DNA of 64,000 nucleotides, from positions 472,397 to 536,396 of the forward strand of contig JACKNG010000003.1 of the NCBI GenBank assembly GCA_024235015.1, in the 5' to 3' direction. Of the stretch, positions 27,866-52,721 are shown in pieces (the first letter of the stretch is position 1; every line of letters begins with the position of its first letter). A program made the position numbers and the translations under genes. The notes under the pieces were generated by a model. The model was not told the DNA's origin and made no database searches. It was given only the letters and a program-made list of their open reading frames with translations. The DNA comes from Gammaproteobacteria bacterium (lineage in GTDB: Bacteria > Pseudomonadota > Gammaproteobacteria > Ga0077536).

Positions 27866-27932
27866 CCCGCGGCGGGGCGGTGGCCGCCGGCACTTGCCGC
27901 AGATCTCGCCAGCGCGGGTCCATCGCATCTCG

Positions 27933-34055: not shown

Positions 34056-34143
34056 GGACGCTGGTGGCTGATTTCGCGAAACCTGGAACTGGTCGCCGGC
34101 GGCGCCGTCCCCGCTTCGGCCGCTGGGCCGCCGCGCCGCACGT

Positions 34144-34725: not shown

Positions 34726-34849
34726 GTTCTGGCCTTGTTCTTCTTCCACTGCAACAACTTGCGTCCGTTCATCCACGGCCGGGACGGCGCGGCCGATTAT
34801 GGCAGTATCGGCACGCGCGGTGCCATTCCTTACCGGCCGCCAGCGCGCC

Positions 34850-36436
34850 TCACAAGCGGATCATGAGGAAACCGCCGACGCTGTTCAGCTCGTTGGCGCC
34901 GCCGCGCGACGAGGTGATGCTCTGGTTGAAGCGCGCGCCGAGCTCGAGCCCGGGCAGCGGCTGCCAGGCGAGGTCCACGCCGAAATGGTGGCCGCGGCCG
35001 TTGTAACGATCGACGGTGTAGCCGCCGCGCACGCCGACGCGGACGTAATCGGTGAGCTGTTCGTTCCAGGCCAGCTGGAGCTGGTGCACCTCGCGATCGT
35101 TGAAGCCGATCGGCGCGTAGCGGTTGCCGGCAGCGTCGAAGCGCTCGCGCACGTTGCCGAACCGCTCGGTGTCGAAGTAGTACTCCAGCGTGATGCGCGG
35201 CGCGGCGTTCCACAGCGTGTAGGCGGTGGCGAGCTGCAGGCCCCAGGCGTCGGCCAGGGCGGCGTCGCCATCGAGGCCGTAACGGCTGCCGTGCAGGGCG
35301 GTTTCGAGCGTCCACGGTTCGTGCATGCGCCAGCGGTGGGTGAGCTCGGCGCGGTGACGGTAACCGCCATGGGCGATGCCCTCGACGAAGTCCCAGTAGG
35401 GTCGCCAGGCGTCGAGCCGGAAGCGCGTGGTGCCCGGGTTCCAGCCGCGCGCCCAGCCGAGGGTGAGTCCCGGCCGCCCGCCGCCCTCGTGGATCTCCAG
35501 CCGCCCCTCGCCGCCGCCCGGCACGGGCCGTTCGAGGTAGAGGCTGGCGAACTCGCGCCGCCCGCTGAACGACTCGACGAAGCCGGCCGGGTTCTGCACC
35601 TGGGGGTCGTCGACGTCGCGGTACTCGAAGCGCAGGCCGGCGACGGTGTCGGCGCCGGCGAAGGCGCGCGATTCGAGCACCCAGATGAGCTGCTCGTCCT
35701 CCTCCTTGACGTCGCTCAGGTCGAAACTCGCGCGCACCATGGGGCCGTACTCGTAGAGCAGCGCGGCCTTGCCCTCGATCATGAACGGCGCGTCGGCATC
35801 GAGGGCCAGCGCGCGGTTGTACAGCGCGATGGCATCGCGCCAGCGGCCGAGCTCGCGTTCCTGCTCGACCAGGTCGAGCAGGGTCTGCACGTCCTGCGGG
35901 TGACGTTCCATGAGATCACGCAGGCGGGCCCGGGCGCCGGTGCGATCGCCGGCGCGACCGCGGGTCAGGGCCTCGAGACGATCGAGGCGCAGCGCCGAAC
36001 CGTCGTCGACGGCGGCCGGCGCGACCGCCGCGGCGGCGCTGCGCACCAGCCAGATCTCGTGCACCCCGGGGCCGGCGCGCAATTCGACCCGCGCATCGCG
36101 CACCGGCTCGAGGTAGAGGCTGTCGAAGCCGTAGCGCAGGTCCTGGATCCAGCCCGGGTAGCGCTCGCCGAGCCCGGCCAGCACGCTGGCGTCGAAGGCG
36201 GCCGGGAAGCGCACCACCACGCCGCGGCCCGCGAGGTCGATGGCGACGTCGCCGCGCTGGGGGATCGGGATCACCAGGCGCAGGGCGCGCGGTTCGGCCG
36301 CGGCGCTGATCACCGGGACGGTCGGCGCGGTCGTCGCTGCCGGCGCGCCAACCGGCGCCTGCGCCGCCGCGCCGTGGGCCACGCCGGCGAGCAGCGACGC
36401 CAGCAGTGCCCGCCGTATCGACCGTACCGCGCTCAT
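34850..36436 (-). CDS. PelB C-terminal-like outer-membrane beta-barrel (porin) protein encoded as a separate ORF with its own signal peptide
   Basis: ATG at 36436 (MSAVRSIRRALLASLLAGVAHGAAAQAP, good Sec signal peptide) overlaps the stop of the upstream TPR ORF (ATGA). A TPR-like stretch is followed by an alternating amphipathic beta-strand pattern rich in aromatic residues (WRPYW..., LQLATAYTLW..., GVDLAWQPL...). 528 aa. The longer 788-aa ORF-table version is an antisense-type extension. Confidence 0.6.
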   Translation of the reverse strand: MSAVRSIRRALLASLLAGVAHGAAAQAPVGAPAATTAPTVPVISAAAEPRALRLVIPIPQRGDVAIDLAGRGVVVRFPAAFDASVLAGLGERYPGWIQDLRYGFDSLYLEPVRDARVELRAGPGVHEIWLVRSAAAAVAPAAVDDGSALRLDRLEALTRGRAGDRTGARARLRDLMERHPQDVQTLLDLVEQERELGRWRDAIALYNRALALDADAPFMIEGKAALLYEYGPMVRASFDLSDVKEEDEQLIWVLESRAFAGADTVAGLRFEYRDVDDPQVQNPAGFVESFSGRREFASLYLERPVPGGGEGRLEIHEGGGRPGLTLGWARGWNPGTTRFRLDAWRPYWDFVEGIAHGGYRHRAELTHRWRMHEPWTLETALHGSRYGLDGDAALADAWGLQLATAYTLWNAAPRITLEYYFDTERFGNVRERFDAAGNRYAPIGFNDREVHQLQLAWNEQLTDYVRVGVRGGYTVDRYNGRGHHFGVDLAWQPLPGLELGARFNQSITSSRGGANELNSVGGFLMIRL

Positions 36437-39400: not shown

Positions 39401-39942
39401 AGCGCCGCCACCGCGCCGTCGACGTCGCCGTCGACCCACAGCAGGCGGGCCAGGCGCAGGGTTTCGGCGTCGTCCGCATCGCCACGTTCGACCAGGCGGG
39501 CGAGCGCGCCGGCTTCGCCATCGCGGTCGCCGGCAAAGGCGTAGAGGCTGGCCAGCTCGCGTACCAGCGCGGTGCTCGGCACGAGCTCGACGCGGCGCGC
39601 CAGCGCGGCGCGGTAGCGTGCCGGCTGCATGGTGTCGCGGTAGACCTCGAGCGCGAGGTCGTAGGCCTCGAGGTCGTCGGGGCGCTCGGCCAGGGTCCGG
39701 TCCATGGCCTCGACGGCGGCCTCGACCTCGCCCTGCTGCAGGTAGAGCTTGTTGAGCGGCACGACCACCGTGGGCCGTGCGCCGTGGGCCAGGAATTCGC
39801 GCTCGAAGCCACTCAGGGCATCGCGGTAGCGCTTGGCCTTGTAATACATGAGCGCGAGTTCCTGTCCGCGCGGCACCAGCAGCACGCTGAGCGCGAGCGC
39901 CGCGACACTCAGCGTGACGAGGAAGACGACGTGGCGCCACAT
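36433..39942 (-). CDS. pelB: PelB-like TPR-repeat scaffold protein (N-terminal TM anchor + about 1100 aa of TPR), lacking the porin domain
   Basis: 1169 aa. N-terminal MWRHVVFLVTLSVAALALSVLLV TM helix followed by uniform helical Ala/Leu-rich TPR-like repeats through to the C-terminus (…AEALEERGFHNRAEPHYERILALL…). The stop at 36433 overlaps the next ATG. Confidence 0.75.
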   Translation of the reverse strand: MWRHVVFLVTLSVAALALSVLLVPRGQELALMYYKAKRYRDALSGFEREFLAHGARPTVVVPLNKLYLQQGEVEAAVEAMDRTLAERPDDLEAYDLALEVYRDTMQPARYRAALARRVELVPSTALVRELASLYAFAGDRDGEAGALARLVERGDADDAETLRLARLLWVDGDVDGAVAALDSWRGRAGGRPDANASLFALDVYAAAGHADAMAHVARRWVEAADDADGFMQALAALVARQQAAAAGPTLRMVLAQRPGRADLLAPALALGAVLGEPAIFSDYVATLDADTGLRALRQGGRAVPPLSPRALALLHTLRDEGRLAALVGGGLAVALVEAGDATLARLAAPVLVDAPALAAPLRAAEFRLLAGDVAGARAAYAAIDTAPPATRLRRLNLALALGDPTTVAALLADAAWPAADYPALAWVYHDLGQAARGYARLGPALVARDDGPAQAAWALLAAGAGERDAVRAWLRASAPAAPAASVDALLCELGLVALAADDEGLAQAVAARAGARLPVRDLEAQRLVHAAGRFEQAVALTAPRVAHDATSRQLFQDALFALLRQRRTVREGLAGLAAGFDHLVAATLAAGDAGSVQARTLAYDLIDAGAWPQAETLLATLVERDPVQWYDAFRDASLASDEREAFFAFVAPRLAAGPADPLHDNYVYDLGRLGGGELLLPALASSVADRGGEPAAREAAYYQWRDLALQQHDADWVAVRLAAWLDAAAPGDALAATWRFDLAELGGPARALPYLEAAAAQGGAAARREAFYAFEAAADQAGAAARVVEFVAARLRAGETDAGLAALYRDALLASPARDAVGPVLDELVAANPARWGEHYVDWLAAGGDSSGLLAFARVHAGDAHLPGSLRRLLATRLLEAGDKAGAVAIHLALAADEAPGGESVDTLLWLWGPRPPPAALDWLAARAAASSGRTRAAWAALLAELGAPRRAAELLAAAARGAQPEPLVVERYARALLDAGARGELEAFLAAYVARAPRRAMLHWAARTASEADLVRVAQRAWLALLEIVPDDPRALREVGLAAFDAGRRGDAEQYLERYLARIDDDYEAHFFYAEALEERGFHNRAEPHYERILALLATSADPGFRARVVRAQTLHRLGHEEAALAAFEALLDERPGEGHLRADYVTMLLDAERLGRARQVLAERGGS

Positions 39943-39966
39943 GTCAGCCGGACCCGTGCCGCCGGC

Positions 39967-42261
39967 TCACGGCGCCGCCGCCAGCGCGGCGTCGACGCGG
40001 GCGATGGTGAAACGCACCGGGGCGTAGGCGGCCTCGCCGAGGCTGAAACGCAGCCGGCCGGCAGCGTCGGCGACGACCTCGAAGCGCCGCGGCGCGGGCC
40101 CGTCCACCACCGTCACCACGTAGTGCTGGCCGGGCTGTCCCTGCCAGCTCATCTCGCCCTCGCCGTAACCGCCGGCGGTGGCCTCGACGTGCCCGGCGGC
40201 GAGACTGCAATCGTGCACGTCCCAGCGCGATTCGACCAGGTAGAGCGGCGCCGCGACACCCGGCGCGGCGCCGAGCGCCACGCGCGGCGTCGTCACCGCG
40301 GCATCGAGCGCGACGTAGAGGCTGCCCTGGTAGCGCCGCCGCCCGATCACGCCGTGCGAGCCGGCCCAGTCGACGTCGCGCTGGTCGGCGTCGTCGAAGC
40401 GCAGCGTCTGCAGGCCGCCACGGTCGTGCACCGTCCACGTCGCTGGCCCTGCGCTGACCAGGCGGGTGGTGAAGAAGCCGGCGCCGATGCTGGCGTAGCG
40501 GCTGGTCTCGATCGGGATCAGGGAATGGCGGCGGACCCACTGCAGGTTCTTCAGCAGCGCGCGCAGCGCCGCCTGCCGCTCGCCGGAATACATGTGGTAG
40601 TAGACGTTGGCGGCACGCACGCGCCGCGGCGACTCGGTGCGTTCGAGGGTCTCCGGCAGGAAACCGAAGGCGTAGTACCGGCTGCGCCACAGATCGGTGT
40701 AGGTGTTCTCGTTGCTGTTGCTCGAGTAGACCTGCCAGTACGGTCCGATCCGCCGCCCGACCGGGGCGACGAAGGCATAGGAGGGGAAATCGCCGTCGAA
40801 ACGCGAGTCGCCGCCGTTGATGTTGCCGAGACCGGCGGCGGCGGTGGCGGCCATCACCGCTGCGAAAGGCAGGGTGTCGCCAGACCACTGGATCACCCGG
40901 CAACGCTTGCCGGGTGGCGCCAGGCGCTCGACGATGGCGACCGAGCCGCCGACCTCGAGGTTGATGTCGAACGGCGCGAGCGCATAGGCGCGGGGCACGT
41001 AGGCGGCGGTGTAGCTGACCTCGTCCTCGTCTTCGGCGAGTAGCTGGGCGTGCTGCTTCTCGAGGCCCTCCCAGCCGAAGTAGCGCCCACCCTGCATGGT
41101 TTCGTAGCGCGGCAGGTAGGCCGCCTCGCGCTGCGCTTCGTAGTGTTCGAAGAAACCCCAGGCGAAGGGATGGGTATGGGTGTGCGTACCGAGCTCGACC
41201 TGCGGCAGGGCGAACAGGTCGCGCGCCGCGGCACGCGCGGCCTCGTCGCCGTACCAGGCGGGATCGAGGTCGGCGGTGATCGGCGAGACCGTCACCGGCA
41301 GGTCGGGGAAGGGACGGATGGCTTCCTCCAGGATCACCCGCGCCGAGATCACCTGGTGGCCGGCATACTCGTCGGCCAGCGAGACGTTACGCCAGCCGTC
41401 GCCGTCGATGTGGCTGTAGTAGATGCGCCGCCCGGCCAGGGTCGTCGTATCCGGCTTGGGCAGGTCGTCGGTGGCAAAGGCGGCGCGCAGGAAGGCGAAG
41501 GGATCGATAATCCACTGCCGCTGCGCGTTCTCCACGCCGCGATAGAGGGCGTAGTCGGCGGCGACGTAGCCACCGGCCGCGCCGGTGACCACGAGATCGG
41601 CGACCTCGGCCGCTCCCGGCTCCGGGCGCACCGCGAGGTGGCTGGTCGCGCCGGGTACGCGCCGGGTCATGACGAAATAGGGCAGCGGCGCGACGAGCGG
41701 GCGTTCGAAACCGATCAACGCCGGGTCGGCGCGCTCGACGCGGGCATCCGCGCCGACCCGCTCGGCGCTGTCGTCGACCGCGATGCCGAGGTGGGTGAGC
41801 ACGCGGTCGAGGCGTTCGCGGTCGACGTAGCGGCCGAAGCGATCGGTCGCGGCGACGAGGTCGCCGAGGATGGCCACGCGCTTGCCGGCGTTCAGCACGC
41901 CCGCCAGCCAGTCGAGGAAGGCGTCGGGGTCGGCGACGTCGGGCGAACGCTGCCACATCACCACCCCGCGCACGTCATCGCGCGCGCCGATGTCGGGCAG
42001 CGGCTGGGCGAGGTCGTGGAACTCGAAGACGAGGCCGAGGTGATTGGCCGGCATTTCCAGGAAGCGATGCAGCGAGGTGGCGTGCCGCGGCCCGCGGCGC
42101 GCATCGTAGAGCGCGACGACGACCCGCGGTACCGCCGCACCCGGCGCGGCGGCGGGCGCCGCCCGTAGCGGCGCGACCGCGAGCAGGCACCAGCACGCGC
42201 ACGCCAGCACGATGCCGCACGAGGTACGGCCACGGCCGTGGGTCTGGTCTGCCTGGATCAT
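39967..42261 (-). CDS. pelA: PelA-like polysaccharide deacetylase (CE4 domain) protein
   Basis: Signal peptide (IVLACACWCLLAVAPLRAAPA). CE4-like motifs YYSHIDGDGW and ELGTHTHTHP. 765 aa versus about 948 for P. aeruginosa PelA; the N-terminal region shows no obvious GH114 motif. ATG 42261 chosen as start. Confidence 0.7.
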   Translation of the reverse strand: MIQADQTHGRGRTSCGIVLACACWCLLAVAPLRAAPAAAPGAAVPRVVVALYDARRGPRHATSLHRFLEMPANHLGLVFEFHDLAQPLPDIGARDDVRGVVMWQRSPDVADPDAFLDWLAGVLNAGKRVAILGDLVAATDRFGRYVDRERLDRVLTHLGIAVDDSAERVGADARVERADPALIGFERPLVAPLPYFVMTRRVPGATSHLAVRPEPGAAEVADLVVTGAAGGYVAADYALYRGVENAQRQWIIDPFAFLRAAFATDDLPKPDTTTLAGRRIYYSHIDGDGWRNVSLADEYAGHQVISARVILEEAIRPFPDLPVTVSPITADLDPAWYGDEAARAAARDLFALPQVELGTHTHTHPFAWGFFEHYEAQREAAYLPRYETMQGGRYFGWEGLEKQHAQLLAEDEDEVSYTAAYVPRAYALAPFDINLEVGGSVAIVERLAPPGKRCRVIQWSGDTLPFAAVMAATAAAGLGNINGGDSRFDGDFPSYAFVAPVGRRIGPYWQVYSSNSNENTYTDLWRSRYYAFGFLPETLERTESPRRVRAANVYYHMYSGERQAALRALLKNLQWVRRHSLIPIETSRYASIGAGFFTTRLVSAGPATWTVHDRGGLQTLRFDDADQRDVDWAGSHGVIGRRRYQGSLYVALDAAVTTPRVALGAAPGVAAPLYLVESRWDVHDCSLAAGHVEATAGGYGEGEMSWQGQPGQHYVVTVVDGPAPRRFEVVADAAGRLRFSLGEAAYAPVRFTIARVDAALAAAP

Positions 42262-42502
42262 GGTGTCGCTGTTCGCTTCCTGCCGCGGCGGCATCGTCGC
42301 GCCGGGCCGTGTCGGCTGTTGCGCCGCATCAACGGGGTAGCGGCCCTTCGCGCCCGCAATGAACCCCGGCGGCGGGATAGTAGTCGCTCGCCGCCGGCGT
42401 TAGAACCGGGCCGGTGCGGGGGCACCGCCGGCGCACGGTGATAGCATGCGCGGCGGCCGGCCGCGCGTGCGACCGGCGCCACCCTGAAGCCCGGAGAAGA
42501 CC

Positions 42503-43660: not shown

Positions 43661-43788
43661 CGGCGCGGTTCGACCCCCGCCTGCGCCGCGATCCGCCCGT
43701 AAGACCCGGCGGCGCGGTCGGGGATCTGACCCCGGCCGCGGCCGTCGCCGAACGTCCTCCGGACCACGGCGGCGCCGCGCCGTTGCCA

Positions 43789-44685
43789 TCAGCGCTGGCT
43801 GCCGGGCGCGAGCGCCTCACGCAGCGCGGCACGGAACAGGCGCAGGCGATGACTCACCAGGCGGGCGTCGGTCGTCAGCAGGCTGACGGGCTGCGGCGGC
43901 GGTTCGAACGCCGCCAGGACGATTTCGAGCCGCCCCTGCTGCACCAGGTCGCGCACCTGGTATTCGAGAAAGCGGCCGAACCCGAGTCCCGCGGCGCAGG
44001 CGTCGGCGGCCGACGGTGCGTGATTCACGCTGAGCCGCGGGCTGACCGGCACCTGCACCCGTCGACCCTCGACCATGAACGCCCAGTGGCTGACGCCGAC
44101 GCCGCCGTGGAATTGCACGCAGGGCAGGCTCGCCAGTGCCTGCGGCACGGCCGGCACACCGTGGCGCTCGAGCAGCTGCGGGCTGGCGGCGACGACCAGG
44201 CGCATGCTGCCGGCGGGCAGCGCGACCATCGTCGAATCGGCCAGCGGCCCGATGCGCACGGCCAGATCGATGCCCTCCTCGTGCAGGTTGACCGGGCGGT
44301 CGAGCAGCAGCAGGTCGATGCTCACCTCGGGCCAGCGCCGCACGAAGTCGGTGACGGCCGGCATCACGTGGCGGTGGCCGAAGGTGACCGGCGCCGTTAC
44401 CCGGAGCAGGCCGGCCGGTGCCGGGTGGGCAGCGTCGAGCACGCGCTCGGCCTCGTCGACATCGGCCAGGATGCGCCGGCAGCGTTCGAGGTAGTCGCGC
44501 CCTTCCGGTGTGAGGGCGAGCCGCCGCGTGGTCCGTCGCAGCAGGCGCACGCCGAGGTGTGCCTCGAGATTGGCCAGGCTGCGCACCATGGTCGGCTGTG
44601 CCTTGCCGAGCGCCTCGGCCGCGGCGGTCAGGCTGCCGCGATCGACGATCTCGACGAAGGCGGCCATGGCGGCGAGCTTGTCCAT
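43789..44685 (-). CDS. LysR-family transcriptional regulator
   Basis: N-terminal HTH MAAFVEIVDRGSLTAAAEALGKAQPTMVRSLANLEAHLGVRLLRRTTRRLALT and a LysR substrate-binding domain. Divergent from the VOC/FNR operon. Confidence 0.9.
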   Translation of the reverse strand: MDKLAAMAAFVEIVDRGSLTAAAEALGKAQPTMVRSLANLEAHLGVRLLRRTTRRLALTPEGRDYLERCRRILADVDEAERVLDAAHPAPAGLLRVTAPVTFGHRHVMPAVTDFVRRWPEVSIDLLLLDRPVNLHEEGIDLAVRIGPLADSTMVALPAGSMRLVVAASPQLLERHGVPAVPQALASLPCVQFHGGVGVSHWAFMVEGRRVQVPVSPRLSVNHAPSAADACAAGLGFGRFLEYQVRDLVQQGRLEIVLAAFEPPPQPVSLLTTDARLVSHRLRLFRAALREALAPGSQR

Positions 44686-44809
44686 GCCGATTAATCATTT
44701 TTCCTGATAGATAAAATGAAAATTAGCACATTTATTCCCAGGCATTGATGCACGACCCTGCGTGGCAGGCCGGCGATGGTCGCCCGCCACGATCACGGGA
44801 GGCCCTGCC

Positions 44810-45226
44810 ATGGCCCACACAGCACCACCCAACCCGCCGGCCACGCGCGGCGTCCACCATGTCGGCTTGAGCGTGCCCGACCTCGCCGCCGCCCGCGCCT
44901 TCTTCGTCGACGCCCTCGACTACACCGTGGTCGGCGAGAAACCCGACTACCCGGCGGTCTTCGTCAGCGACGGCGCCGTCATGGTCACCCTGTGGCAGTG
45001 CGCCGCCGACGCCGCGCCGTTCGACCGTCGCCGCCAGGTCGGCCTGCATCACCTGGCGCTCCGCGTCGCCGATCTCGAGGTGCTGGCCGAGCGCCTCGCC
45101 GGGCGGCCGGACACGATCGTGGAGTTCGCGCCCGAACCGCTCGGCGACAGCGGCACCCGGCACATGATGTGCGCGATCCCCGGTGGCATCCGCGTCGAGT
45201 TCATCGCCCCGGCGGGAGGTGCCTGA
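44810..45226 (+). CDS. VOC-family (glyoxalase/bleomycin-resistance/dioxygenase fold) protein
   Basis: GVHHVGLSVPDLAAARAFF ... GLHHLALRVAD. 138 aa from ATG 44810. Confidence 0.8.
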   Translation: MAHTAPPNPPATRGVHHVGLSVPDLAAARAFFVDALDYTVVGEKPDYPAVFVSDGAVMVTLWQCAADAAPFDRRRQVGLHHLALRVADLEVLAERLAGRPDTIVEFAPEPLGDSGTRHMMCAIPGGIRVEFIAPAGGA

Positions 45227-45227
45227 C

Positions 45228-46832
45228 ATGCCTGCCACCAGCCCCTTCCACGTCGGCGAGACGCAGATCCAGGCGCGCCTCGGCGTGCGCGAGGCCGTCG
45301 CCGGCTTCGCCCGGCGCATGGTGCGCGACCACATGCCGGAGCAGCACCGCGAGTTCTACCGCCAGTTGCCCTGCGTGGTCGTCGCCGCCCGCGACGGCGA
45401 CGGCCGCCCCTGGGCCACCCTCATCGCCGACCCGGCCGGGGTCGTCACCTCGCCCGCGCCCGACCGTCTCGACTTCAAAGCCGGCCCGGTCACGGGCGAC
45501 GCGCTCGCGGGCGCGTTCGTCGCCGGCCGCGACGTCGGTGTACTCGGCATCGAGTTCGCAACCCGCCGCCGCAACCGCGTCAACGGTCGCGTCAGCGACG
45601 CCGACGGCCACGGTTTCGGCTTCCGCGTCGACCAGAGCTTTGGCAACTGCCCGCAATACATCCACGACCGCCACTGGCGGCCGGCCGCGCCGGCCGCGTC
45701 ACCGCGACGACGGCTCGGCGCCGAACTCGACGCGGTTCAACAGGCCTGGATCGCGGACGCCGACACCGTCTTCCTGGCCTCGGGTTTCCGCGGCGACGGC
45801 GAGGACCCGGCCTTCGGCATGGATGCCTCCCATCGCGGCGGCCCGCCCGGCTTCGTCCGCGTCCTCGATGCCCACACCCTGGCCTGGCCGGAGTACGCCG
45901 GCAACAACCACTACAACACGCTCGGCAACCTCGTCATGGATCCGCGCATCGGCCTGCTGTTCGTCGACTTCGCCAGCGGCAGCCTGTTACAGCTGAGCGG
46001 GCGCGCGCGCATCGACTTCTCGCCCGATGCGGCGCGCTGGCCCGGCGCGCAACGCGTGGTCGAGGTCAGGGTGGAAGCGGTCAACGACCTGCACGAGGCG
46101 CTGCCGCTGCGCTGGCACGCGCCCGCCGCGCTCGAAGTCGAGGTGGACGAAGTGGTGGACGAAAGCGCCGGGGTGCGCTCGTTCTGGCTGGTCGGCGCCG
46201 ATGGCGCATCCTTGCCGCCCTTCCAGGCCGGCCAGCATGTTCCGCTGGAGGTGACGCTGGGCGGAGTCCGGGCGCTGCGCACCTACTCGCTGTCGTCGGC
46301 GCCGACGGCGCCGCGCTGGCGCATCAGTGTGCGCGCGCTGGCCGGTGGCCGCGTGTCGTCGCACCTGCACGCGGCCGCGACGCCCGGCGCGCGCCTGCGA
46401 GCCGGCCTGCCGGCCGGGCAGTTCGTGCTCGATGGCGGCGCCGGACCGCTCGTGCTGGTGGCCGGCGGGATCGGTGTCACGCCGCTGGCCAGCATGCTCG
46501 CCGAGGCGGTGGCCCGCGGCCGACCGGTCACCTTCGTCTACGCCGCGCGGCACGGCGGCGAGGCGCCCTTGCTGGACGAGGTGCGTGGCCTCGCCCGCAG
46601 CCACGGCGTGCGCCTGCACGTCGCCTTCAGTCGGCCCGCGCCGGGCGAACGTCCCGGCATCGATTTCGACAGCGCCGGCCGCCTCGGCCCCGCCGCGGTG
46701 CAGGCCCTGCTGCCGACCAGCGCGTGCGACGCCCGCGTGTGCGGCCCGCCCGGCTTCGTCGCCGCCGTCACGCACGCACTGGAGGGTGGCGGTGTCGCCG
46801 CCGCGCGGATCCGCGGCGAGACCTTTGGTTGA
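45228..46832 (+). CDS. Fusion protein: PNPOx-like FMN-binding split-barrel + ferredoxin-NADP reductase-type FAD/NAD module
   Basis: N-terminal PNPOx-like domain; C-terminal FNR-like module with RTYSLSS (RxYS FAD motif) and GGIGVTP NAD(P) motif. Start ATG 45228, 2 nt after the VOC stop. Confidence 0.8.
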   Translation: MPATSPFHVGETQIQARLGVREAVAGFARRMVRDHMPEQHREFYRQLPCVVVAARDGDGRPWATLIADPAGVVTSPAPDRLDFKAGPVTGDALAGAFVAGRDVGVLGIEFATRRRNRVNGRVSDADGHGFGFRVDQSFGNCPQYIHDRHWRPAAPAASPRRRLGAELDAVQQAWIADADTVFLASGFRGDGEDPAFGMDASHRGGPPGFVRVLDAHTLAWPEYAGNNHYNTLGNLVMDPRIGLLFVDFASGSLLQLSGRARIDFSPDAARWPGAQRVVEVRVEAVNDLHEALPLRWHAPAALEVEVDEVVDESAGVRSFWLVGADGASLPPFQAGQHVPLEVTLGGVRALRTYSLSSAPTAPRWRISVRALAGGRVSSHLHAAATPGARLRAGLPAGQFVLDGGAGPLVLVAGGIGVTPLASMLAEAVARGRPVTFVYAARHGGEAPLLDEVRGLARSHGVRLHVAFSRPAPGERPGIDFDSAGRLGPAAVQALLPTSACDARVCGPPGFVAAVTHALEGGGVAAARIRGETFG

Positions 46833-47214
46833 GACCGCAGTGGCACGCGGCAGCCCCGCCGCCTTCTCAGGCCACGTCTGTGGCGTGCTGCGACGGCCGC
46901 CGGCACGGCGCGACGTACGTTCCATCACAGGGGTCGTCGCGTTCCGGCTGGAACCGCTAGCGTCGGGTCGTGGGTGTGCGGGGCCCGCGGGGGTGGTCCG
47001 CCGGTCGCGCTACGGCGGCGTGCTCGGCCCGGATGTCACGGCGGTCGGGCGAATGTAACAAATTGTCACGTTTCAGCCGGCGGCCGGCGGTCGACTGAAC
47101 CCGCTCGCCGATTCCGCTATCGTCCTCCTGTCGGAGTCGTAGCCTCGGCCAGCCATGCGACAGCGCGGCCAGCGTGGGGTGCCCTGTCAGGATCGCAACG
47201 GAGGGGGAATCCTC

Positions 47215-50200
47215 ATGGTCGCCAGGTATAGCCGCGCCATCGCGCTCAGTCTCCTAGTCACCGCTGCCGGCACGCGTGCGGCCATGGCGGACGTTGTCAG
47301 CAGTTGCGTCTTCACGGGCGATCTCGGTACGGCTTGGAGTGTCGCCGCCAATTGGGACTGCTTCGGGCTCCCCGGGCCGCCAAACAACGCACCGCCACAA
47401 CGCTGGTTCGCGGTCATTCCCCAGGACGCCATCGCACACCTCGACCAGGACGCCGCCATCGACAAGCTCGCCATCGACAGTGGCGGCCAGTTGCACATCG
47501 ACAACATCCGGCACCTGCGCCTCGAGAACAGCGGTGAGCCCGACTCCGGCGCCCACCAGATCACCGGGACCCTGTTTCTGGATTCGGTCGGCAACCTCAC
47601 CGATCTCGAGTTCGCCGGCGGCCACGGCATCGGGACGCTCAGCCACGGCCTCATCCAGCTCTCCAACAATACCCAGAACCGTATCCGCGGCTTCAGCGGG
47701 GGTGGCGCCGATACGCTGGTCCTCGACGGCGTCGACGTGCGCGGCGCCGGGCAGTTCGGCGTCAACTCGCTCGTCATCTATACCAATGCACTGGTCGACG
47801 CCAACGTCGCGAACCCGCTGGTCGTCGATCCCGACGAGACCGGCGGCGCCAAGTTCACCAACGACGGTATCCTGCAATCGAGCGCCAACGGCACGCTGGT
47901 GCTGCAGTTCGGCACGTTCGACAACCGCAACGGCACGATCCGGGCGCTCGACGATGGCCAGACCGTGCTCAGCACGGTGACCGTCGAGGGTGGGCAGCTG
48001 ACCACGGGAGGCAACGGCCGCGTTCGTGTGTCCGGCGTCGCCGTGCTCGATGGCAGCGCGGATCTCGTCAACGACGCCGTCATCGACGTGCCCAACTTCC
48101 AGGCCCTCGACCTCCTCGGTCACATCACCAACAACGGCACCATCAACCTGCAGTCGGTCGGCAACGTCACCAGCCTGCGCCTGCGCGACGACGTCACCCT
48201 CGACGGCAACGGCACCGTCAATCTCAGCAACAACTCCGAGAACGAGTTGCGCTCGACCGGCGGCGTCTTCACCCTCACCAACGAGAGCAACCTCCTGCGC
48301 GGCTCGGGACGACTCGGCGCCAACACCCTCGGCCTCGTCAACCGCGGCACTGTCCGCGCCGACCAGCCCAACGCCCTCGTCGTCGACCCCGACGATGCAC
48401 GCGGCGTCGTCAACGCCGGCCTCATGGAAGCCACCGCCGGCGGCACGCTCACCCTCGCCGACGGCCTGTTCCAGAACTTCGAGGGACCCGTCGACGGCAC
48501 CATCCAGGCCACCGACGGCACCGTCGAGGTCAACGGCGCCACCGTCGATGGCGGCAACGTCGCCACCCATGGCAGCGCCACCCTGCGTCTCGTCAACGGC
48601 ACCGTCCACGGCGGCACCCTCGTCAACGGCGCCGGCAGCACCGTGCGTGCCGCTTCCGGCACCTCCCGCCTCGGCGGTGCCGTCACCTTCGACACCGGCT
48701 CGTTCGTCGTCGTCGACAACTTCGCCACCCTCGACCTCGAGGCCAGCGCCGGCGCCACCAGCTACCTCAACGACGGCCGCATCGCCCTCAACTCCGTCGG
48801 CAACGTCACCACCCTGCGCCTGCTCGGCGACGTCACCCTCGACGGCAGCGGCGAACTCCTGCTCAACGGCAACACCGAGAACTACGTCCGCGGCCTCGCC
48901 GGCACCGAGCGCCTCACCCTCAACGGCCAACTCGTCCACGGCGGCGGACGCCTCGGCAACAACCTCCTGAGCCTCACCCTCGACGCCAACACCGTCCTCG
49001 ACGCCGACCTCGCCGGCCGTATCCTCTTCGTCGACCCCGCCGCCTCCGGCGACGTCACCAACCTCGGCCTCATGCGCGCCTCCAACGGCGGCACCCTCGA
49101 ACTCGGCGACGGCCAGGTCTTCAATGCCGGCGGCACCATCGCCGCCGACGACGCCTCGCGCGTGCGCCTGAGCAACGTCAACATCGCCGGCGGCCACCTC
49201 GACTCGACCGGCTCGGGCCGCTTCGAGATCGTCGGCAACACCGTCCTCGACGGCATCGGCCTGGTCAACGACGCCGTCATCGACGTGCCCAACTTCCAGG
49301 CCCTCGACCTCCTCGGTCACATCACCAACAACGGCACCATCAACCTGCAGTCGGTCGGCAACGTCACCAGCCTGCGCCTGCGCGACGACGTCACCCTCGA
49401 CGGCAACGGCACCGTCAATCTCAGCAACAACTCCGAGAACGAGTTGCGCTCGACCGGCGGCGTCTTCACCCTCACCAACGAGAGCAACCTCCTGCGCGGC
49501 TCGGGACGACTCGGCGCCAACACCCTCGGCCTCGTCAACCGCGGCACTGTCCGCGCCGACCAGCCCAACGCCCTCGTCGTCGACCCCGACGATGCACGCG
49601 GCGTCGTCAACGCCGGCCTCATGGAAGCCACCGCCGGCGGCACGCTCACCCTCGCCGACGGCCTGTTCCAGAACTTCGAGGGACCCGTCGACGGCACCAT
49701 CCAGGCCACCGACGGCACCGTCGAGGTCAACGGCGCCACCGTCGATGGCGGCAACGTCGCCACCCATGGCAGCGCCACCCTGCGTCTCGTCAACGGCACC
49801 GTCCACGGCGGCACCCTCGTCAACGGCGCCGGCAGCACCGTGCGTGCCGCTTCCGGCACCTCCCGCCTCGGCGGTGCCGTCACCTTCGACACCGGCTCGT
49901 TCGTCGTCGTCGACAACTTCGCCACCCTCGACCTCGAGGCCAGCGCCGGCGCCACCAGCTACCTCAACGACGGCCGCATCGCCCTCAACTCCGTCGGCAA
50001 CGTCACCACCCTGCGCCTGCTCGGCGACGTCACCCTCGACGGCAGCGGCGAACTCCTGCTCAACGGCAACACCGAGAACTACGTCCGCGGCCTCGCCGGC
50101 ACCGAGCGCCTCACCCTCAACGGCCAACTCGTCCACGGCGGCGGACGCCTCGGCAACAACCTCCTGAGCCTCACCCTCGACGCCAACACCGTCCTCGACG

Positions 50201-52653
50201 CCGACCTCGCCGGCCGTATCCTCTTCGTCGACCCCGCCGCCTCCGGCGACGTCACCAACCTCGGCCTCATGCGCGCCTCCAACGGCGGCACCCTCGAACT
50301 CGGCGACGGCCAGGTCTTCAATGCCGGCGGCACCATCGCCGCCGACGACGCCTCGCGCGTGCGCCTGAGCAACGTCAACATCGCCGGCGGCCACCTCGAC
50401 TCGACCGGCTCGGGCCGCTTCGAGATCGTCGGCAACACCGTCCTCGACGGCATCGGCCTGGTCAACGACGCCGTCATCGACGTGCCCAACTTCCAGGCCC
50501 TCGACCTCCTCGGTCACATCACCAACAACGGCACCATCAACCTGCAGTCGGTCGGCAACGTCACCAGCCTGCGCCTGCGCGACGACGTCACCCTCGACGG
50601 CAACGGCACCGTCAATCTCAGCAACAACTCCGAGAACGAGTTGCGCTCGACCGGCGGCGTCTTCACCCTCACCAACGAGAGCAACCTCCTGCGCGGCTCG
50701 GGACGACTCGGCGCCAACACCCTCGGCCTCGTCAACCGCGGCACTGTCCGCGCCGACCAGCCCAACGCCCTCGTCGTCGACCCCGACGATGCACGCGGCG
50801 TCGTCAACGCCGGCCTCATGGAAGCCACCGCCGGCGGCACGCTCACCCTCGCCGACGGCCTGTTCCAGAACTTCGAGGGACCCGTCGACGGCACCATCCA
50901 GGCCACCGACGGCACCGTCGAGGTCAACGGCGCCACCGTCGATGGCGGCAACGTCGCCACCCATGGCAGCGCCACCCTGCGTCTCGTCAACGGCACCGTC
51001 CACGGCGGCACCCTCGTCAACGGCGCCGGCAGCACCGTGCGTGCCGCTTCCGGCACCTCCCGCCTCGGCGGTGCCGTCACCTTCGACACCGGCTCGTTCG
51101 TCGTCGTCGACAACTTCGCCACCCTCGACCTCGAGGCCAGCGCCGGCGCCACCAGCTACCTCAACGACGGCCGCATCGCCCTCAACTCCGTCGGCAACGT
51201 CACCACCCTGCGCCTGCTCGGCGACGTCACCCTCGACGGCAGCGGCGAACTCCTGCTCAACGGCAACACCGAGAACTACGTCCGCGGCCTCGCCGGCACC
51301 GAGCGCCTCACCCTCAACGGCCAACTCGTCCACGGCGGCGGACGCCTCGGCAACAACCTCCTGAGCCTCACCCTCGACGCCAACACCGTCCTCGACGCCG
51401 ACCTCGCCGGCCGTATCCTCTTCGTCGACCCCGCCGCCTCCGGCGACGTCACCAACCTCGGCCTCATGCGCGCCTCCAACGGCGGCACCCTCGAACTCGG
51501 CGACGGCCAGGTCTTCAATGCCGGCGGCACCATCGCCGCCGACGACGCCTCGCGCGTGCGCCTGAGCAACGTCAACATCGCCGGCGGCCACCTCGACTCG
51601 ACCGGCTCGGGCCGCTTCGAGATCGTCGGCAACACCGTCCTCGACGGCATCGGCCTGGTCAACGACGCCGTCATCGACGTGCCCAACTTCCAGGCCCTCG
51701 ACCTCCTCGGTCACATCACCAACAACGGCACCATCAACCTGCAGTCGGTCGGCAACGTCACCAGCCTGCGCCTGCGCGACGACGTCACCCTCGACGGCAA
51801 CGGCACCGTCAATCTCAGCAACAACTCCGAGAACGAGTTGCGCTCGACCGGCGGCGTCTTCACCCTCACCAACGAGAGCAACCTCCTGCGCGGCTCGGGA
51901 CGACTCGGCGCCAACACCCTCGGCCTCGTCAACCGCGGCACTGTCCGCGCCGACCAGCCCAACGCCCTCGTCGTCGACCCCGACGATGCACGCGGTTTCG
52001 TCAACGAGGGCACCCTCGAGGCCGTCGGGATAGGCACACTCACCCTGGCGTCAGGTGCCTTCTCGACCAGTGGCGTCGTCACGGTCGCGTCGACCGCTAA
52101 GCTCCTGCGTCAAGGTCTCTACCGTCAGACCGCCGGTGTGACCCAGGTCGACGGCCTGCTCACGGCGACGGGCGGCGTCCTCATCGAAGGTGGACTGCTG
52201 GGCGGCCACGGCACCGTCGCGGGTGACGTCGACAACGGCGGGCAAGTCGGCCCGGGCGGCTCGATCGGCCAACTCGACATCAGCGGGAACTACGTCCAGC
52301 GCAGTGCCGGCGAACTGCTGATCGAGATTGCCGGGCTCGGCGTCAACGACGTTCTCGCCGTCACCGGCGAGGCGAGCCTGGGCGGCCTGGTCGCGGTCGA
52401 TCTCGATCCAGGCTACCTGCCGGCGCTCGGCGACAGCTTCGTCTTCCTGCTCGCCGACACGATTGCGAACGGCTTCGACGGTATCGCCTGCATCAGCTGC
52501 AACGGCCGCCAGTTCGAGTTGCTCTACGGTACCGATTTCGCCGCGCTGGTCGTGACCTCGGCGGTCCCGCTACCACCCGCCCTGTGGATGACACTGGGGG
52601 CACTGGTCACGCTCGCCGCGCGCCGGCGCGACGCCACGCCCGGGACGCGCTGA
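47215..52653 (+). CDS. Giant secreted beta-helical repeat protein (adhesin-like), 1812 aa, with PEP-CTERM-like C-terminal sorting signal
   Basis: RBS GGAGGGGG then ATG 47215; signal peptide MVARYSRAIALSLLVTAAGTRAAMA. About 200-aa Gly/Asn/Thr/Leu-rich modules (…SVGNVT.LRL.DDVTLDG.G…LVVDPDDARGVVNAGL…GGTLTL.DG…), beta-helix-like. C-terminal autotransporter-associated beta-strand-repeat-like segment (GQLDISGNYVQRSAGELLIEIAG...LAVTGEASLGGLVAVDL) and tail VPLPPALWMTLGALVTLAARRRD. Confidence 0.85.
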   Translation: MVARYSRAIALSLLVTAAGTRAAMADVVSSCVFTGDLGTAWSVAANWDCFGLPGPPNNAPPQRWFAVIPQDAIAHLDQDAAIDKLAIDSGGQLHIDNIRHLRLENSGEPDSGAHQITGTLFLDSVGNLTDLEFAGGHGIGTLSHGLIQLSNNTQNRIRGFSGGGADTLVLDGVDVRGAGQFGVNSLVIYTNALVDANVANPLVVDPDETGGAKFTNDGILQSSANGTLVLQFGTFDNRNGTIRALDDGQTVLSTVTVEGGQLTTGGNGRVRVSGVAVLDGSADLVNDAVIDVPNFQALDLLGHITNNGTINLQSVGNVTSLRLRDDVTLDGNGTVNLSNNSENELRSTGGVFTLTNESNLLRGSGRLGANTLGLVNRGTVRADQPNALVVDPDDARGVVNAGLMEATAGGTLTLADGLFQNFEGPVDGTIQATDGTVEVNGATVDGGNVATHGSATLRLVNGTVHGGTLVNGAGSTVRAASGTSRLGGAVTFDTGSFVVVDNFATLDLEASAGATSYLNDGRIALNSVGNVTTLRLLGDVTLDGSGELLLNGNTENYVRGLAGTERLTLNGQLVHGGGRLGNNLLSLTLDANTVLDADLAGRILFVDPAASGDVTNLGLMRASNGGTLELGDGQVFNAGGTIAADDASRVRLSNVNIAGGHLDSTGSGRFEIVGNTVLDGIGLVNDAVIDVPNFQALDLLGHITNNGTINLQSVGNVTSLRLRDDVTLDGNGTVNLSNNSENELRSTGGVFTLTNESNLLRGSGRLGANTLGLVNRGTVRADQPNALVVDPDDARGVVNAGLMEATAGGTLTLADGLFQNFEGPVDGTIQATDGTVEVNGATVDGGNVATHGSATLRLVNGTVHGGTLVNGAGSTVRAASGTSRLGGAVTFDTGSFVVVDNFATLDLEASAGATSYLNDGRIALNSVGNVTTLRLLGDVTLDGSGELLLNGNTENYVRGLAGTERLTLNGQLVHGGGRLGNNLLSLTLDANTVLDADLAGRILFVDPAASGDVTNLGLMRASNGGTLELGDGQVFNAGGTIAADDASRVRLSNVNIAGGHLDSTGSGRFEIVGNTVLDGIGLVNDAVIDVPNFQALDLLGHITNNGTINLQSVGNVTSLRLRDDVTLDGNGTVNLSNNSENELRSTGGVFTLTNESNLLRGSGRLGANTLGLVNRGTVRADQPNALVVDPDDARGVVNAGLMEATAGGTLTLADGLFQNFEGPVDGTIQATDGTVEVNGATVDGGNVATHGSATLRLVNGTVHGGTLVNGAGSTVRAASGTSRLGGAVTFDTGSFVVVDNFATLDLEASAGATSYLNDGRIALNSVGNVTTLRLLGDVTLDGSGELLLNGNTENYVRGLAGTERLTLNGQLVHGGGRLGNNLLSLTLDANTVLDADLAGRILFVDPAASGDVTNLGLMRASNGGTLELGDGQVFNAGGTIAADDASRVRLSNVNIAGGHLDSTGSGRFEIVGNTVLDGIGLVNDAVIDVPNFQALDLLGHITNNGTINLQSVGNVTSLRLRDDVTLDGNGTVNLSNNSENELRSTGGVFTLTNESNLLRGSGRLGANTLGLVNRGTVRADQPNALVVDPDDARGFVNEGTLEAVGIGTLTLASGAFSTSGVVTVASTAKLLRQGLYRQTAGVTQVDGLLTATGGVLIEGGLLGGHGTVAGDVDNGGQVGPGGSIGQLDISGNYVQRSAGELLIEIAGLGVNDVLAVTGEASLGGLVAVDLDPGYLPALGDSFVFLLADTIANGFDGIACISCNGRQFELLYGTDFAALVVTSAVPLPPALWMTLGALVTLAARRRDATPGTR
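48067..51996. repeat. Tandem array of nucleotide-identical 1197-bp (399-codon) repeats: 3 full copies (48067, 49264, 50461) plus a 339-bp partial 4th copy, inside the giant gene
   Basis: Period measured from recurrence of gacgccgtcatcgacgtgcccaacttccagg at 48073/49270/50467/51664. Identical translated blocks on both strands in the ORF track (three identical 212-aa and three identical 136-aa antisense ORFs). Copy 4 diverges at about 51997. Confidence 0.9.
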
Positions 52654-52721
52654 GCGAGACGCGGCTGCCGCGCCGCGGGTCAGCAGCCTGCCCCGCGGAC
52701 CCGGGCGCCACGGCCGGCGGC

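What the first reader, a model, noticed from the sequence alone, without database searches (positions are those of the whole stretch)
47215..52653. 1812-aa secreted beta-helical repeat protein with three 100%-identical 1197-bp tandem repeats (plus a partial fourth) and a PEP-CTERM-like tail
The repeats are identical at the nucleotide level over 3.6 kb (period 1197 bp, starting 48067/49264/50461, with a partial copy to about 51997). This implies very recent expansion or ongoing gene conversion. Such arrays are hotspots for copy-number (phase/antigenic) variation and are also prone to assembly collapse, so the true copy number is uncertain. The N-terminal quarter contains older, diverged copies of the same about 200-aa module. 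The C-terminus resembles autotransporter-associated beta-strand repeats and ends with VPLPPALWMTLGALVTLAARRR, a PEP-CTERM-like motif (P-x-P, TM helix, Arg cluster). Large adhesin-like exosortase cargo next to a pel locus suggests a surface/biofilm matrix protein.
Basis: partly seen in the sequence, partly recalled or inferred. Interest (0 to 1): 0.65.

Follow-up and report, generated by a model that had tools for sequence, protein, structure and literature searches.

The report
Length-variable beta-helix surface protein gene
This is a gene for a very long, rod-shaped secreted protein of an uncultured gammaproteobacterium, in which a 1.2-kb block has recently been copied three times without error; such repeat arrays are well known in bacterial surface proteins, so the case is real but ordinary.

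Summary
ORF 47215-52653 (+) encodes 1812 aa, and a period-1197 array spans 48067-51995 (3.28 units) with no mismatch.

The window is a MAG contig. A second MAG of the same species (99.7% identical flanks) carries the same gene with exactly two units fewer (1014 aa). There the first and last repeat heads differ at 4 of 338 nt. Copy number therefore differs between assemblies. The perfect identity reflects either very recent unequal crossover plus conversion, or consensus polishing.

AlphaFold models (pLDDT 96.7 and 92.2) show a continuous beta-helix. Its nearest solved folds are autotransporter passengers (Ag43, TibA, Ssp, the IcsA autochaperone), but there is no beta-barrel.

The tail VPLPPALWMTLGALVTLAARRR has the motif/TM/Arg layout and aligns column for column with true PEP-CTERM tails of distant homologues. 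It nevertheless fails the curated PEP-CTERM and VPLPA-CTERM models.

The pel locus is real. However, the gene lies in a 9-kb block that is absent at this site in the nearest relative, so the adjacency carries no weight. No exosortase lies in the window, and the rest of the genome could not be searched.

The repeat module belongs to a large family (about 10,000 cluster representatives) with no Pfam or NCBIfam model.

Verdict: new member of a known kind, of modest interest.

The parts
43661..52711 (.). 9.05-kb accessory block carrying a LysR regulator (43789-44685, -), a glyoxalase (44762-45226), a PNPOx/FNR flavoprotein (45183-46832) and the target gene. It is absent at this site in the nearest relative.
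   Evidence: blastn of the window against L002 matches window 32508-43660 to L002 1-11158, and window 52712-59999 to L002 11368-18739. tblastn with P0001 found no homologue in any of the 80 related loci.
46833..47214 (+). 382-nt 5' intergenic region containing an AT-rich island (about 47034-47075) with three TGT[AC]AC hexamers. No recognised promoter or RNA element was found.
   Evidence: Sequence read. There was no sigma-70 consensus, no sigma-54 -24/-12 match and no Rfam match. A large upstream gap and a single-gene arrangement are typical of PEP-CTERM genes (PMC1569441).
47200..47208 (+). Shine-Dalgarno sequence GGAGGGGGA, 6 nt before the ATG at 47215.
   Evidence: Both public annotations start at MVARYSR.
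47215..52653 (+). Coding sequence of 1812 aa plus stop. It is identical to MCP5200280.1 (H6977_09705, 'hypothetical protein', MAG Gammaproteobacteria bacterium).
47215..47289 (+). Predicted Sec signal peptide MVARYSRAIALSLLVTAAGTRAAMA, with an A-M-A cleavage motif.
   Evidence: Inspection of the translation. No signal-peptide predictor was available.
47290..48066 (+). N-terminal cap (W..AANWDC motif region) and one old, diverged module (m0).
   Evidence: m0 is 37% identical to half-module a and 38% to half-module b.
48067..49263 (+). Repeat unit 1 (399 aa: half-modules a of 213 aa and b of 186 aa).
   Evidence: AlphaFold model of this unit has pLDDT 96.7 and is all-beta.
49264..50460 (+). Repeat unit 2, 100% identical to unit 1.
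50461..51657 (+). Repeat unit 3, 100% identical to unit 1.
51658..51995 (+). Partial fourth unit (338-nt 'head' of half-module a), 100% identical to the other heads. Together with the head of unit 1 it is the homology that allows unequal crossover.
51996..52563 (+). Diverged remainder of the last module, followed by a C-terminal beta-helix cap that resembles the autochaperone/junction region of autotransporter passengers.
   Evidence: AlphaFold pLDDT 92.2. Foldseek matches: Ssp 8e7f E=9.6e-7, Hap, EspC, pertactin, IcsA 3ml3. The cap is shared across the family. There is weak sequence similarity to autotransporter EprS (E=9.4e-4).
52564..52650 (+). Tripartite C-terminal tail VPLPP-ALWMTLGALVTLAA-RRR-DATPGTR (motif, TM helix, Arg cluster).
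   Evidence: It aligns with VPEP...RRR tails of P0002-5 and P0007. AlphaFold predicts a helix at residues 307-320 of the C-terminal model. It fails TIGR02595 and TIGR03370.
25579..26244 (+). Context: a second, small secreted ORF ending TVPEPMSLALAILGIATTWRSRRWRR, which is near-canonical PEP-CTERM.
   Evidence: (TIGR02595 13.9 bits against a cut-off of 16).
26441..42294 (-). Context: the pel polysaccharide locus (GH114, PelG, PelF, a GAF/PelD-like gene, PelB-like TPR plus barrel, and a presumed PelA).
   Evidence: Pfam scans.

Best explanation
The gene encodes a Sec-exported, rod-like right-handed beta-helix protein of the autotransporter-passenger fold class. It ends not in a beta-barrel but in a PEP-CTERM-type tripartite tail (VPLPP motif, membrane helix, RRR).

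The likely route is as follows (inferred). The signal peptide takes the protein across the inner membrane, and the C-terminal helix holds it there. An exosortase-type enzyme cleaves at the VPLP motif and passes the protein to the cell surface or matrix, where the rod acts as an adhesin or aggregation/matrix protein.

The 1197-bp unit codes for a self-contained stretch of about 15 helix rungs (roughly 7 nm; inferred from a rung period of about 26-27 residues and the standard 4.8 A rise per rung). RecA-type unequal crossover between the 338-nt head of unit 1 and the identical head after the last unit adds or removes whole units in frame. This changes rod length (about 17 nm with 1.28 units against about 32 nm with 3.28 units) without breaking the fold.

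Shown here: the repeats, the beta-helix fold, the length difference between two assemblies, and the positional homology of the tail. Inferred: processing by an exosortase, surface location and adhesive role.
For: - Repeat array: 3.28 perfect units, each 399 codons.
- Second assembly: a MAG contig (L001, GCA_020444845.1) is 99.7% identical over the flanks and carries 1.28 units, giving a protein of 1014 aa = 1812 - 2x399.
- Head variants: at unit offsets 100/169/181/246/286 the other MAG reads A,A,C,C,G in head 1 and G,T,C,A,A in head 2. All four window heads read G,T,T,A,G. That is the head-2(5')/head-1(3') hybrid expected from an unequal crossover between offsets 246 and 286, plus one private change present in every copy.
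- Fold: AlphaFold pLDDT 96.7 and 92.2, all-beta, then a terminal helix. Foldseek matches Ag43, TibA, Ssp, Hap, pertactin and the IcsA autochaperone.
- Tail: it aligns to VPEP-TM-RRR tails of homologues that score 33 bits on TIGR02595. Of 264 family members, 78 end in PxP-TM-basic tails, mostly PEP.
- Clade context: relatives carry tails that pass VPLPA-CTERM (38.8, 29.0, 26.3 bits) or PEP-CTERM. The window itself holds a second, near-canonical VPEP tail.
- Family trait: recent module amplification is common. The median best internal identity is 75%, against 30-37% between proteins, and 9 of 120 members are at or above 90%.
- Literature: PEP-CTERM proteins are needed for floc formation (PMC9850573, PMC9012009) and typically sit in single-gene operons after large intergenic gaps (PMC1569441).
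Against: - The tail gives no TIGR02595 hit at E<=10 and only 6.3-6.5 bits on TIGR03370. The near-invariant Glu is replaced by Leu, and the helix lacks the usual Gly-rich pattern.
- No exosortase lies in the 64-kb window or in 1.3 Mb of related loci screened crudely. The rest of the genome could not be searched.
- No sigma-54 site of the kind described upstream of proteobacterial PEP-CTERM genes was found.
- Both assemblies are MAGs. The 1.28-unit version could be a collapsed short-read path, and the perfect identity in the window could come from consensus polishing.
- Fold matches have low TM-scores (0.2-0.5), so the similarity is at the class level.
- No functional data exist for any member of this family.
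Confidence: 0.6

Rival explanations
1. Assembly artefact. The array is real, but its state in the window (exactly 3.28 units, 100% identical) is produced by metagenome assembly and consensus polishing. The true units differ slightly and/or the copy number differs or is heterogeneous in the population.
For: The window protein is identical to a MAG protein on a 674,665-bp contig. The other MAG of the species shows 4 differences in 338 nt between first and last heads. The window heads equal the majority call expected if the internal heads are crossover hybrids. Head 1 differs from the other MAG at 1.2%, against 0.24% in the flanks.
Against: A private substitution (T at offset 181) is present in all four copies. 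The 859 nt of each unit outside the head are identical between the two MAGs anyway. Near-identical internal repeats occur in independent family members. Gene conversion gives the same pattern.
Confidence: 0.3
2. The tail is only a C-terminal inner-membrane anchor, or a decayed sorting signal. The beta-helix stays tethered in the periplasm and is not exosortase cargo.
For: The tail fails both curated tail models, and Glu is replaced by Leu in the motif that is thought to be the recognition site (PMC1569441). No exosortase was seen locally.
Against: The tail sits exactly where homologues have functional-looking PEP-CTERM tails. It is identical in both MAGs. E-to-hydrophobic variants (VPVP, VPLPA) recur in the family and in the clade, and several pass the curated models. 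A 30-nm rod is hard to fit in a periplasm (inference).
Confidence: 0.15
3. The beta-helix is an enzyme acting on polysaccharide (lyase, hydrolase or tailspike-like depolymerase) rather than a structural adhesin.
For: Weaker fold matches to PL6 alginate lyases, HK620/9NA tailspikes, polygalacturonases and a capybara-gut beta-helix domain. Each module has conserved Asn/Asp/Gly positions.
Against: These matches are weaker (E of 0.009 and above for the unit, apart from 7jvi) than those to adhesin passengers. The same module is repeated 8 times here and up to 13 times in relatives, which is typical of structural repeats. No Pfam or NCBIfam enzyme family hit was found.
Confidence: 0.07

Closest known systems
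PEP-CTERM / exosortase cargo proteins (TIGR02595; Haft et al. 2006, PMC1569441)
   Same: N-terminal signal peptide. An extreme C-terminal tail with a P-x-P motif abutting a TM helix, followed by an Arg cluster. A single gene after a >200-nt intergenic gap, with no other known domain. Distant homologues with the same architecture carry bona fide VPEP tails in the aligned position.
   Different: The motif is VPLPP, not VPEP. The curated HMM gives no hit. No sigma-54 upstream site was found, and an exosortase was not demonstrated.
VPLPA-CTERM sorting-domain proteins (TIGR03370)
   Same: A V-P-L-P start and a Trp three residues later. Relatives of this clade carry tails that pass this model (38.8, 29.0, 26.3 bits).
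   Different: This tail scores 6.3-6.5 bits against a cut-off of 25.35. It has Pro where the model expects Ala, and its membrane helix is Gly-poor.
Self-associating autotransporter passengers (Ag43, TibA, AIDA-I type) and other T5aSS passengers (Ssp, Hap, pertactin, IcsA)
   Same: A right-handed three-faced beta-helix rod. The C-terminal cap resembles the autochaperone/junction region.
   Different: There is no C-terminal beta-barrel translocator and no Pfam autotransporter or PATR hit. Sequence identity is 14-25% and TM-scores are 0.2-0.5. The export route must differ.
Surface proteins with nucleotide-identical long tandem repeats and strain-to-strain copy-number variation (e.g. streptococcal alpha C/Rib, staphylococcal SasG/Aap, Bap-type proteins; from general knowledge)
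   Same: In-frame repeats more than 200 nt long and identical at DNA level. Copy number differs between isolates. The repeats encode self-contained structural modules that set the length of a surface rod.
   Different: The fold differs (beta-helix rather than Ig-like/G5-E domains). The unit is much longer (1197 bp). The host is Gram-negative with a PEP-CTERM-type tail. Variation is seen so far only between two MAGs.

Membership tests
PEP-CTERM sorting domain (TIGR02595 / PF07589) | Score at or above the curated cut-off of the domain model | tested here: not met
   No TIGR02595 hit at E<=10 for the tail alone or in longer contexts, and no PF07589 hit. Control tails from homologues score 33.2, 24.0 and 21.5 bits (cut-off 16).
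PEP-CTERM sorting domain (TIGR02595 / PF07589) | Near-invariant Pro-Glu-Pro signature directly before the TM helix | tested here: not met
   The sequence is V-P-L-P-P. It aligns to V-P-E-P of homologues, with Leu in the Glu column.
PEP-CTERM sorting domain (TIGR02595 / PF07589) | Tripartite layout at the extreme C-terminus (motif, about 14-20 hydrophobic residues, basic cluster) plus an N-terminal signal peptide | tested here: met
   VPLPP / ALWMTLGALVTLAA / RRR, followed by 7 residues to the stop. AlphaFold predicts a helix over the hydrophobic part. The signal peptide is judged by inspection.
PEP-CTERM sorting domain (TIGR02595 / PF07589) | Exosortase (EpsH/Xrt family) encoded in the same genome | not testable with these tools
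   None among the ORFs of the 64-kb window. A crude multi-TM screen of 80 related loci found none.
PEP-CTERM sorting domain (TIGR02595 / PF07589) | Several proteins with the tail per genome | tested here: inconclusive
   One further ORF in the window (25579-26244) ends in VPEP-TM-RR but scores 13.9 bits against a cut-off of 16. Only 64 kb of the genome was seen.
VPLPA-CTERM sorting domain (TIGR03370) | Score at or above the curated cut-off (25.35 bits) | tested here: not met
   6.5 and 6.3 bits. Tails from relatives L011, L018 and L022 score 38.8, 29.0 and 26.3.
Classical autotransporter (type Va secretion) | C-terminal 12-stranded beta-barrel translocator domain | tested here: not met
   No Pfam or NCBIfam autotransporter barrel hit. 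The protein ends 9 residues after a single TM helix, and the C-terminal model has no barrel.
Classical autotransporter (type Va secretion) | Beta-helical passenger with autochaperone-like C-terminal cap | tested here: met
   Foldseek matches: Ag43 7koh E=7e-5, TibA 4q1q, Ssp 8e7f E=1e-6, IcsA autochaperone 3ml3 with TM 0.57. TM-scores are low, so the resemblance is at fold-class level.
Two-partner secretion exoproteins (FHA/TpsA) | N-terminal TPS domain / filamentous haemagglutinin repeats | tested here: not met
   Only a sub-threshold fil_hemag_20aa match (11.2 bits, cut-off 18). HMW1 and EtpA TPS domains appear only at E>0.1.
Autotransporter-associated beta-strand repeat (PATR, PF12951) | Pfam PF12951 match | tested here: not met
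   No hit at E<=1 on the full protein, or at E<=0.01 on the C-terminus.

The most novel reading that the evidence does not exclude
The roughly 380-400-aa double-module beta-helix super-repeat is an undescribed, very large domain family: about 10,000 50%-identity clusters and no Pfam or NCBIfam model. It would act as a length-adjustable spacer joined to interchangeable C-terminal anchors (PEP-CTERM, VPLPA-like, dockerin and several unannotated endings). On this reading the VPLPP tail is a functional, not yet modelled flavour of exosortase signal, and in this lineage rod length is actively tuned by recombination.
Probability: 0.15. Interest if true: 0.5.

Novelty: new member of a known kind. Interest (0 to 1): 0.3.

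Why it matters
The case has practical value rather than conceptual value.

- It is a clean, checkable example of how a 1.2-kb perfect tandem repeat is represented differently in two metagenome assemblies of one species (1014 aa against 1812 aa). This matters for anyone comparing MAG proteomes or counting adhesin repeats.
- It shows that a very common beta-helix module of environmental bacteria has no curated family model, so such proteins are annotated as 'hypothetical'.
- It shows that curated C-terminal sorting-signal models miss divergent tails that are positionally homologous to true ones.
- If the protein is a surface rod, unit number would set how far it reaches from the cell, which could be tested in floc- or biofilm-forming relatives.

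Tried and rejected
- Pfam and NCBIfam scans of the whole protein and its parts gave nothing above threshold. The TrkA and adenovirus pIX hits are composition noise.
- Searches for orthologous loci with P0001 in genome contigs and metagenome contigs found none.
- A protein-database search with the C-terminal 217 aa returned only two weak hits and missed the exact matches.
- A profile of the unit against PDB sequences gave only a 13-bit 'possible adhesin' match.
- Regulatory signals were absent: no sigma-70 or terminator consensus near the gene, no sigma-54 -24/-12 site upstream, and no Rfam family, including c-di-GMP riboswitches.
- Exosortase hunt: none among the window ORFs. A multi-TM plus C.G/N..R/H...G screen of 1.3 Mb of related loci picked out only PelG and one unrelated ORF. 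Gene lists around VPLPA-tail genes in L011, L018, L022 and L026 showed no candidate.
- A suspected PelB frameshift, considered as a sign of assembly error, was rejected because the same two-ORF layout is present in L002.
- The long antisense ORF 47254-51714 was rejected as a GC-rich artefact.
- Functional linkage to pel by neighbourhood was rejected on synteny.
- The genomic contexts of two homologues (P0007, P0089) show no conserved partners.
- Papers mentioning VPLPA-CTERM gave no information on its processing enzyme.
Full report
**Observation.** Between 44 and 56 kb the only long frame with coding-type composition (GC3 0.92) is 47155..52653 on the + strand. The ATG at 47215 is preceded by GGAGGGGGA at 47200-47208 and is the start used in two public annotations. 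A base-by-base test of period 1197 shows w[i]=w[i+1197] for every i from 48067 to 50798. The array therefore runs 48067-51995, which is three complete units (starts 48067, 49264, 50461) and a 338-nt fourth head, with no mismatch in 3929 nt. Each unit is itself two older half-modules of 639 and 558 nt that are 64% identical in DNA and 42% in protein. One further diverged module (37-38% identity) lies in the N-terminal 284 aa, and the last, partial unit continues into a diverged version of half-module a. The unit is 399 codons, so changes in unit number stay in frame.

**Source of the window, and a second copy of the locus.** The protein is identical over all 1812 residues to MCP5200280.1, 'MAG: hypothetical protein H6977_09705 [Gammaproteobacteria bacterium]', on a 674,665-bp contig. 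The window is therefore a metagenome-assembled contig. The best database hit, P0001 (MCB1746825.1, KDK06_06600, another Gammaproteobacteria MAG, GCA_020444845.1), is 1014 aa, which equals 1812 minus exactly 2 x 399. Its 9,971-bp contig (L001) aligns without gaps to window 40553 onward. There are 18 mismatches in the 7,514 nt before the array (0.24%) and 3 in the 922 nt after it. It holds 1.28 units.

In that MAG the head of unit 1 and the terminal head differ at 4 of 338 nt. At unit offsets 100/169/181/246/286 the readings are:
- MAG head 1: A,A,C,C,G.
- MAG terminal head: G,T,C,A,A.
- All four window heads: G,T,T,A,G.

The window state is what an unequal crossover between the two heads, with a breakpoint between offsets 246 and 286, would create for the internal heads. 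It also carries one private change (T at 181) that is present in every copy. For the first and last heads to carry this state too requires either gene conversion or consensus polishing of a multi-copy repeat. I cannot separate these two without reads. Likewise, the 1.28-unit version may be real or may be a single pass through a collapsed loop in a short-read graph. What is shown is that two assemblies of one species differ by exactly two units, and that the heads are the recombination substrate.

**What the protein is.** No Pfam or NCBIfam family reaches threshold on the whole protein or on its parts. Both MAG annotations call it hypothetical. Distant homologues (at most 37% identity, 1000-3000 aa) are numerous and come from Planctomycetota, Verrucomicrobia, Acidobacteria-type and proteobacterial MAGs. 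They share the same double-module super-repeat.

With a 26-row alignment of such double modules, AlphaFold2 models one unit at pLDDT 96.7 and pTM 0.93 as an uninterrupted all-beta solenoid. Strand spacing suggests rungs of about 26-27 residues. That gives about 15 rungs, or about 7 nm per unit at the standard 4.8 A rise (inference). The best solved-structure matches are the beta-helix passengers of the self-associating autotransporters Ag43 (7koh, 4kh3) and TibA (4q1q). PL6 lyases and phage tailspikes follow. E-values are modest and TM-scores are 0.2-0.4, so this is a fold-class assignment.

The C-terminal 331 aa model at pLDDT 92.2. The helix continues to about residue 302 of the model and is followed by an alpha-helix over PALWMTLGALVTLA. 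Its best matches are again autotransporter passengers (Ssp 8e7f E=1e-6, Hap, EspC, IgA1 protease, pertactin) and the IcsA autochaperone fragment 3ml3 (TM 0.57, rmsd 3.3 A).

**The tail.** VPLPPALWMTLGALVTLAARRRDATPGTR has the three parts that define C-terminal sorting domains: a motif, a TM helix and an Arg cluster (PMC1569441; bioRxiv 10.1101/2023.06.07.544157). In phmmer and MAFFT alignments the roughly 190-aa cap and the tail align through to within 3-5 residues of the ends of P0002-P0005 and P0007. V-P-L-P falls on their V-P-E-P, and RRR on their RRR.

Tested against the curated models, however, the tail gives no TIGR02595 hit at E<=10. It scores 6.3-6.5 bits on VPLPA-CTERM (cut-off 25.35) and 14.6 on MYXO-CTERM, where only the TM/Arg part matches. 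Control tails from homologues score 33.2 (VPEP) and 24.0, 21.5 and 15.3 (VPVP variants) on TIGR02595.

Three further observations bear on the tail:
- Of 264 family members, 78 end in PxP-TM-basic tails, at least 61 of them PEP and a handful with a hydrophobic residue in place of Glu.
- A regex scan of the window and of 1.3 Mb from relatives found proteins ending VPLPAAAWLF..., VPVPTALWLF..., VPVPGAVWML... and similar. Three pass VPLPA-CTERM and three pass PEP-CTERM.
- The same scan found a second ORF in the window (25579-26244) ending VPEPMSLALAILGIATTWRSRRWRR, at 13.9 bits, just under the cut-off.

My reading is that the tail is a divergent member of the PEP/VPLPA-CTERM class. Membership by the curated definitions is not met, and function as a signal is inferred.

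**Surroundings.** The pel locus is real: GH114, PelG, PelF, a GAF/PelD-like gene and PelB-like TPR plus barrel lie at 26.4-42.3 kb on the minus strand. It ends 4.9 kb upstream of the gene. A CoA-transferase, a LysR regulator, a glyoxalase and a flavoprotein lie between them. No exosortase family hit occurs in any window ORF scanned.

Using the CoA-transferase as a handle, 80 related loci were fetched. In the nearest (L002, 94% aa identity), window 32508-43660 and 52712-59999 are collinear. The 9.05 kb between them (LysR, glyoxalase, flavoprotein and the target) is replaced by a 218-bp spacer with REP-like palindromes. More distant relatives lack still more of the region, and none of the 80 loci encodes a homologue. 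The block has ordinary composition (70.8% GC) and no mobility genes. The gene is thus part of a variable block, and its position near pel is not conserved. Homologues elsewhere are likewise lone genes among unrelated metabolic genes.

Upstream of the gene is a 382-nt gap, typical of PEP-CTERM genes (PMC1569441). It has no sigma-54 match, no sigma-70 consensus and no Rfam element.

**Family-level context.** A profile of the unit searched against 1.84 billion cluster representatives finds 9,991 proteins at E<=1e-3 and 3,615 at E<=1e-30, usually with 3-13 end-to-end matches per protein. Within proteins, the best 150-aa internal repeat identity has a median of 75% and is at least 90% in 9 of 120 members. 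Identity between proteins is 30-37%. Lineage-specific amplification or homogenisation of modules is therefore a family habit, and the present array is its extreme.

**Mechanism, rivals and verdict.** The best-supported account has four steps:
- Sec export of the protein.
- A transient C-terminal membrane anchor.
- Exosortase-type processing and surface or matrix display of a beta-helix rod.
- Rod length set by in-frame gain and loss of 399-aa units through homologous recombination between the heads.

The last step is supported by the sequence data. The middle steps rest on homology and on what is known of PEP-CTERM systems (PMC1569441, PMC9850573, PMC9012009, PMC12188702).

Rivals are an assembly or polishing origin of the perfect identity or of the copy number (0.3), a mere membrane anchor or decayed signal (0.15), and an enzymatic beta-helix (0.07).

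Nucleotide-identical long repeats with variable copy number in surface proteins are a well-known phenomenon, and large beta-helical PEP-CTERM proteins are common. I therefore rate this a new member of a known kind, with interest 0.3. Its main value is as a documented repeat-collapse or expansion case, and as a pointer to an unmodelled, very large beta-helix family.

Noticed in passing
window 25579-26244 (+): A small (about 221 aa) secreted ORF beside the GH114/pel genes ends in TVPEPMSLALAILGIATTWRSRRWRR. This is a near-canonical PEP-CTERM tail that scores 13.9 bits on TIGR02595 (cut-off 16), with a weak match to the FxDxF PEP-CTERM family.
   Followed up: partly
homologues P0016, 32, 33, 36, 37, 39, 44, 45, 47, 49, 51, 60; P0020, 27, 35, 40, 41, 52, 54, 62, 65, 70, 83; P0009, 19, 23, 29, 67; P0026, 43, 57, 113: Members of the same beta-helix family end in several recurrent, unannotated C-terminal sequences (…MARLYVCAYLPSTVGHTMGCN; …PVKILPPMLPRITR; …DPDSPDAL.IGYMTYT.SH; …GF.FP..H.SKP..GF..E) or in dockerin-like ends. 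The rod appears to be combined with many different anchors or terminal modules.
   Followed up: no
L002 11159-11367: The 218-bp spacer that replaces the window's 9-kb block in the closest relative contains three REP-like palindromic copies (CACTTGACCGNCGGTGTCAGNCACC…).
   Followed up: no
L011 14208-16230 (-), L018 6961-7668 (-), L022 8995-9915 (+) and 13594-17844 (+), L026 8877-9914 (+): Relatives of this gammaproteobacterial clade encode proteins with VP[LV]P-x-A-x-[WP] tails close to the CoA-transferase gene. Three tails pass VPLPA-CTERM and three pass PEP-CTERM. One of the proteins is 1416 aa and is not homologous to the target.
   Followed up: partly
window 34850-36433 (-) and 36433-39942 (-): The PelB-like function is split over two ORFs: a 1169-aa TPR protein, and a roughly 530-aa TPR protein with a weak PelB C-terminal barrel match. 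The same layout occurs in L002, so it is not a frameshift. The 775-aa ORF in the PelA position (39967-42294) has no Pfam hit, while a separate GH114 gene lies at 26441-28006.
   Followed up: partly
window 47034-47075: An AT-rich island with three TGT[AC]AC hexamers sits in the otherwise 70% GC upstream region of the gene. It may be a regulator site.
   Followed up: no
window 47254-51714 (-): A 1486-aa antisense ORF spans the repeats, with many shorter periodic antisense ORFs. These are a by-product of GC-rich repetitive coding sequence and not a gene (GC3 below the coding range).
   Followed up: yes
(tool behaviour): The word-indexed protein search with the C-terminal 217 aa did not return P0001 or P0265, although both contain the query exactly. 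The 1812-aa entry was found only by listing the members of P0001's cluster.
   Followed up: yes
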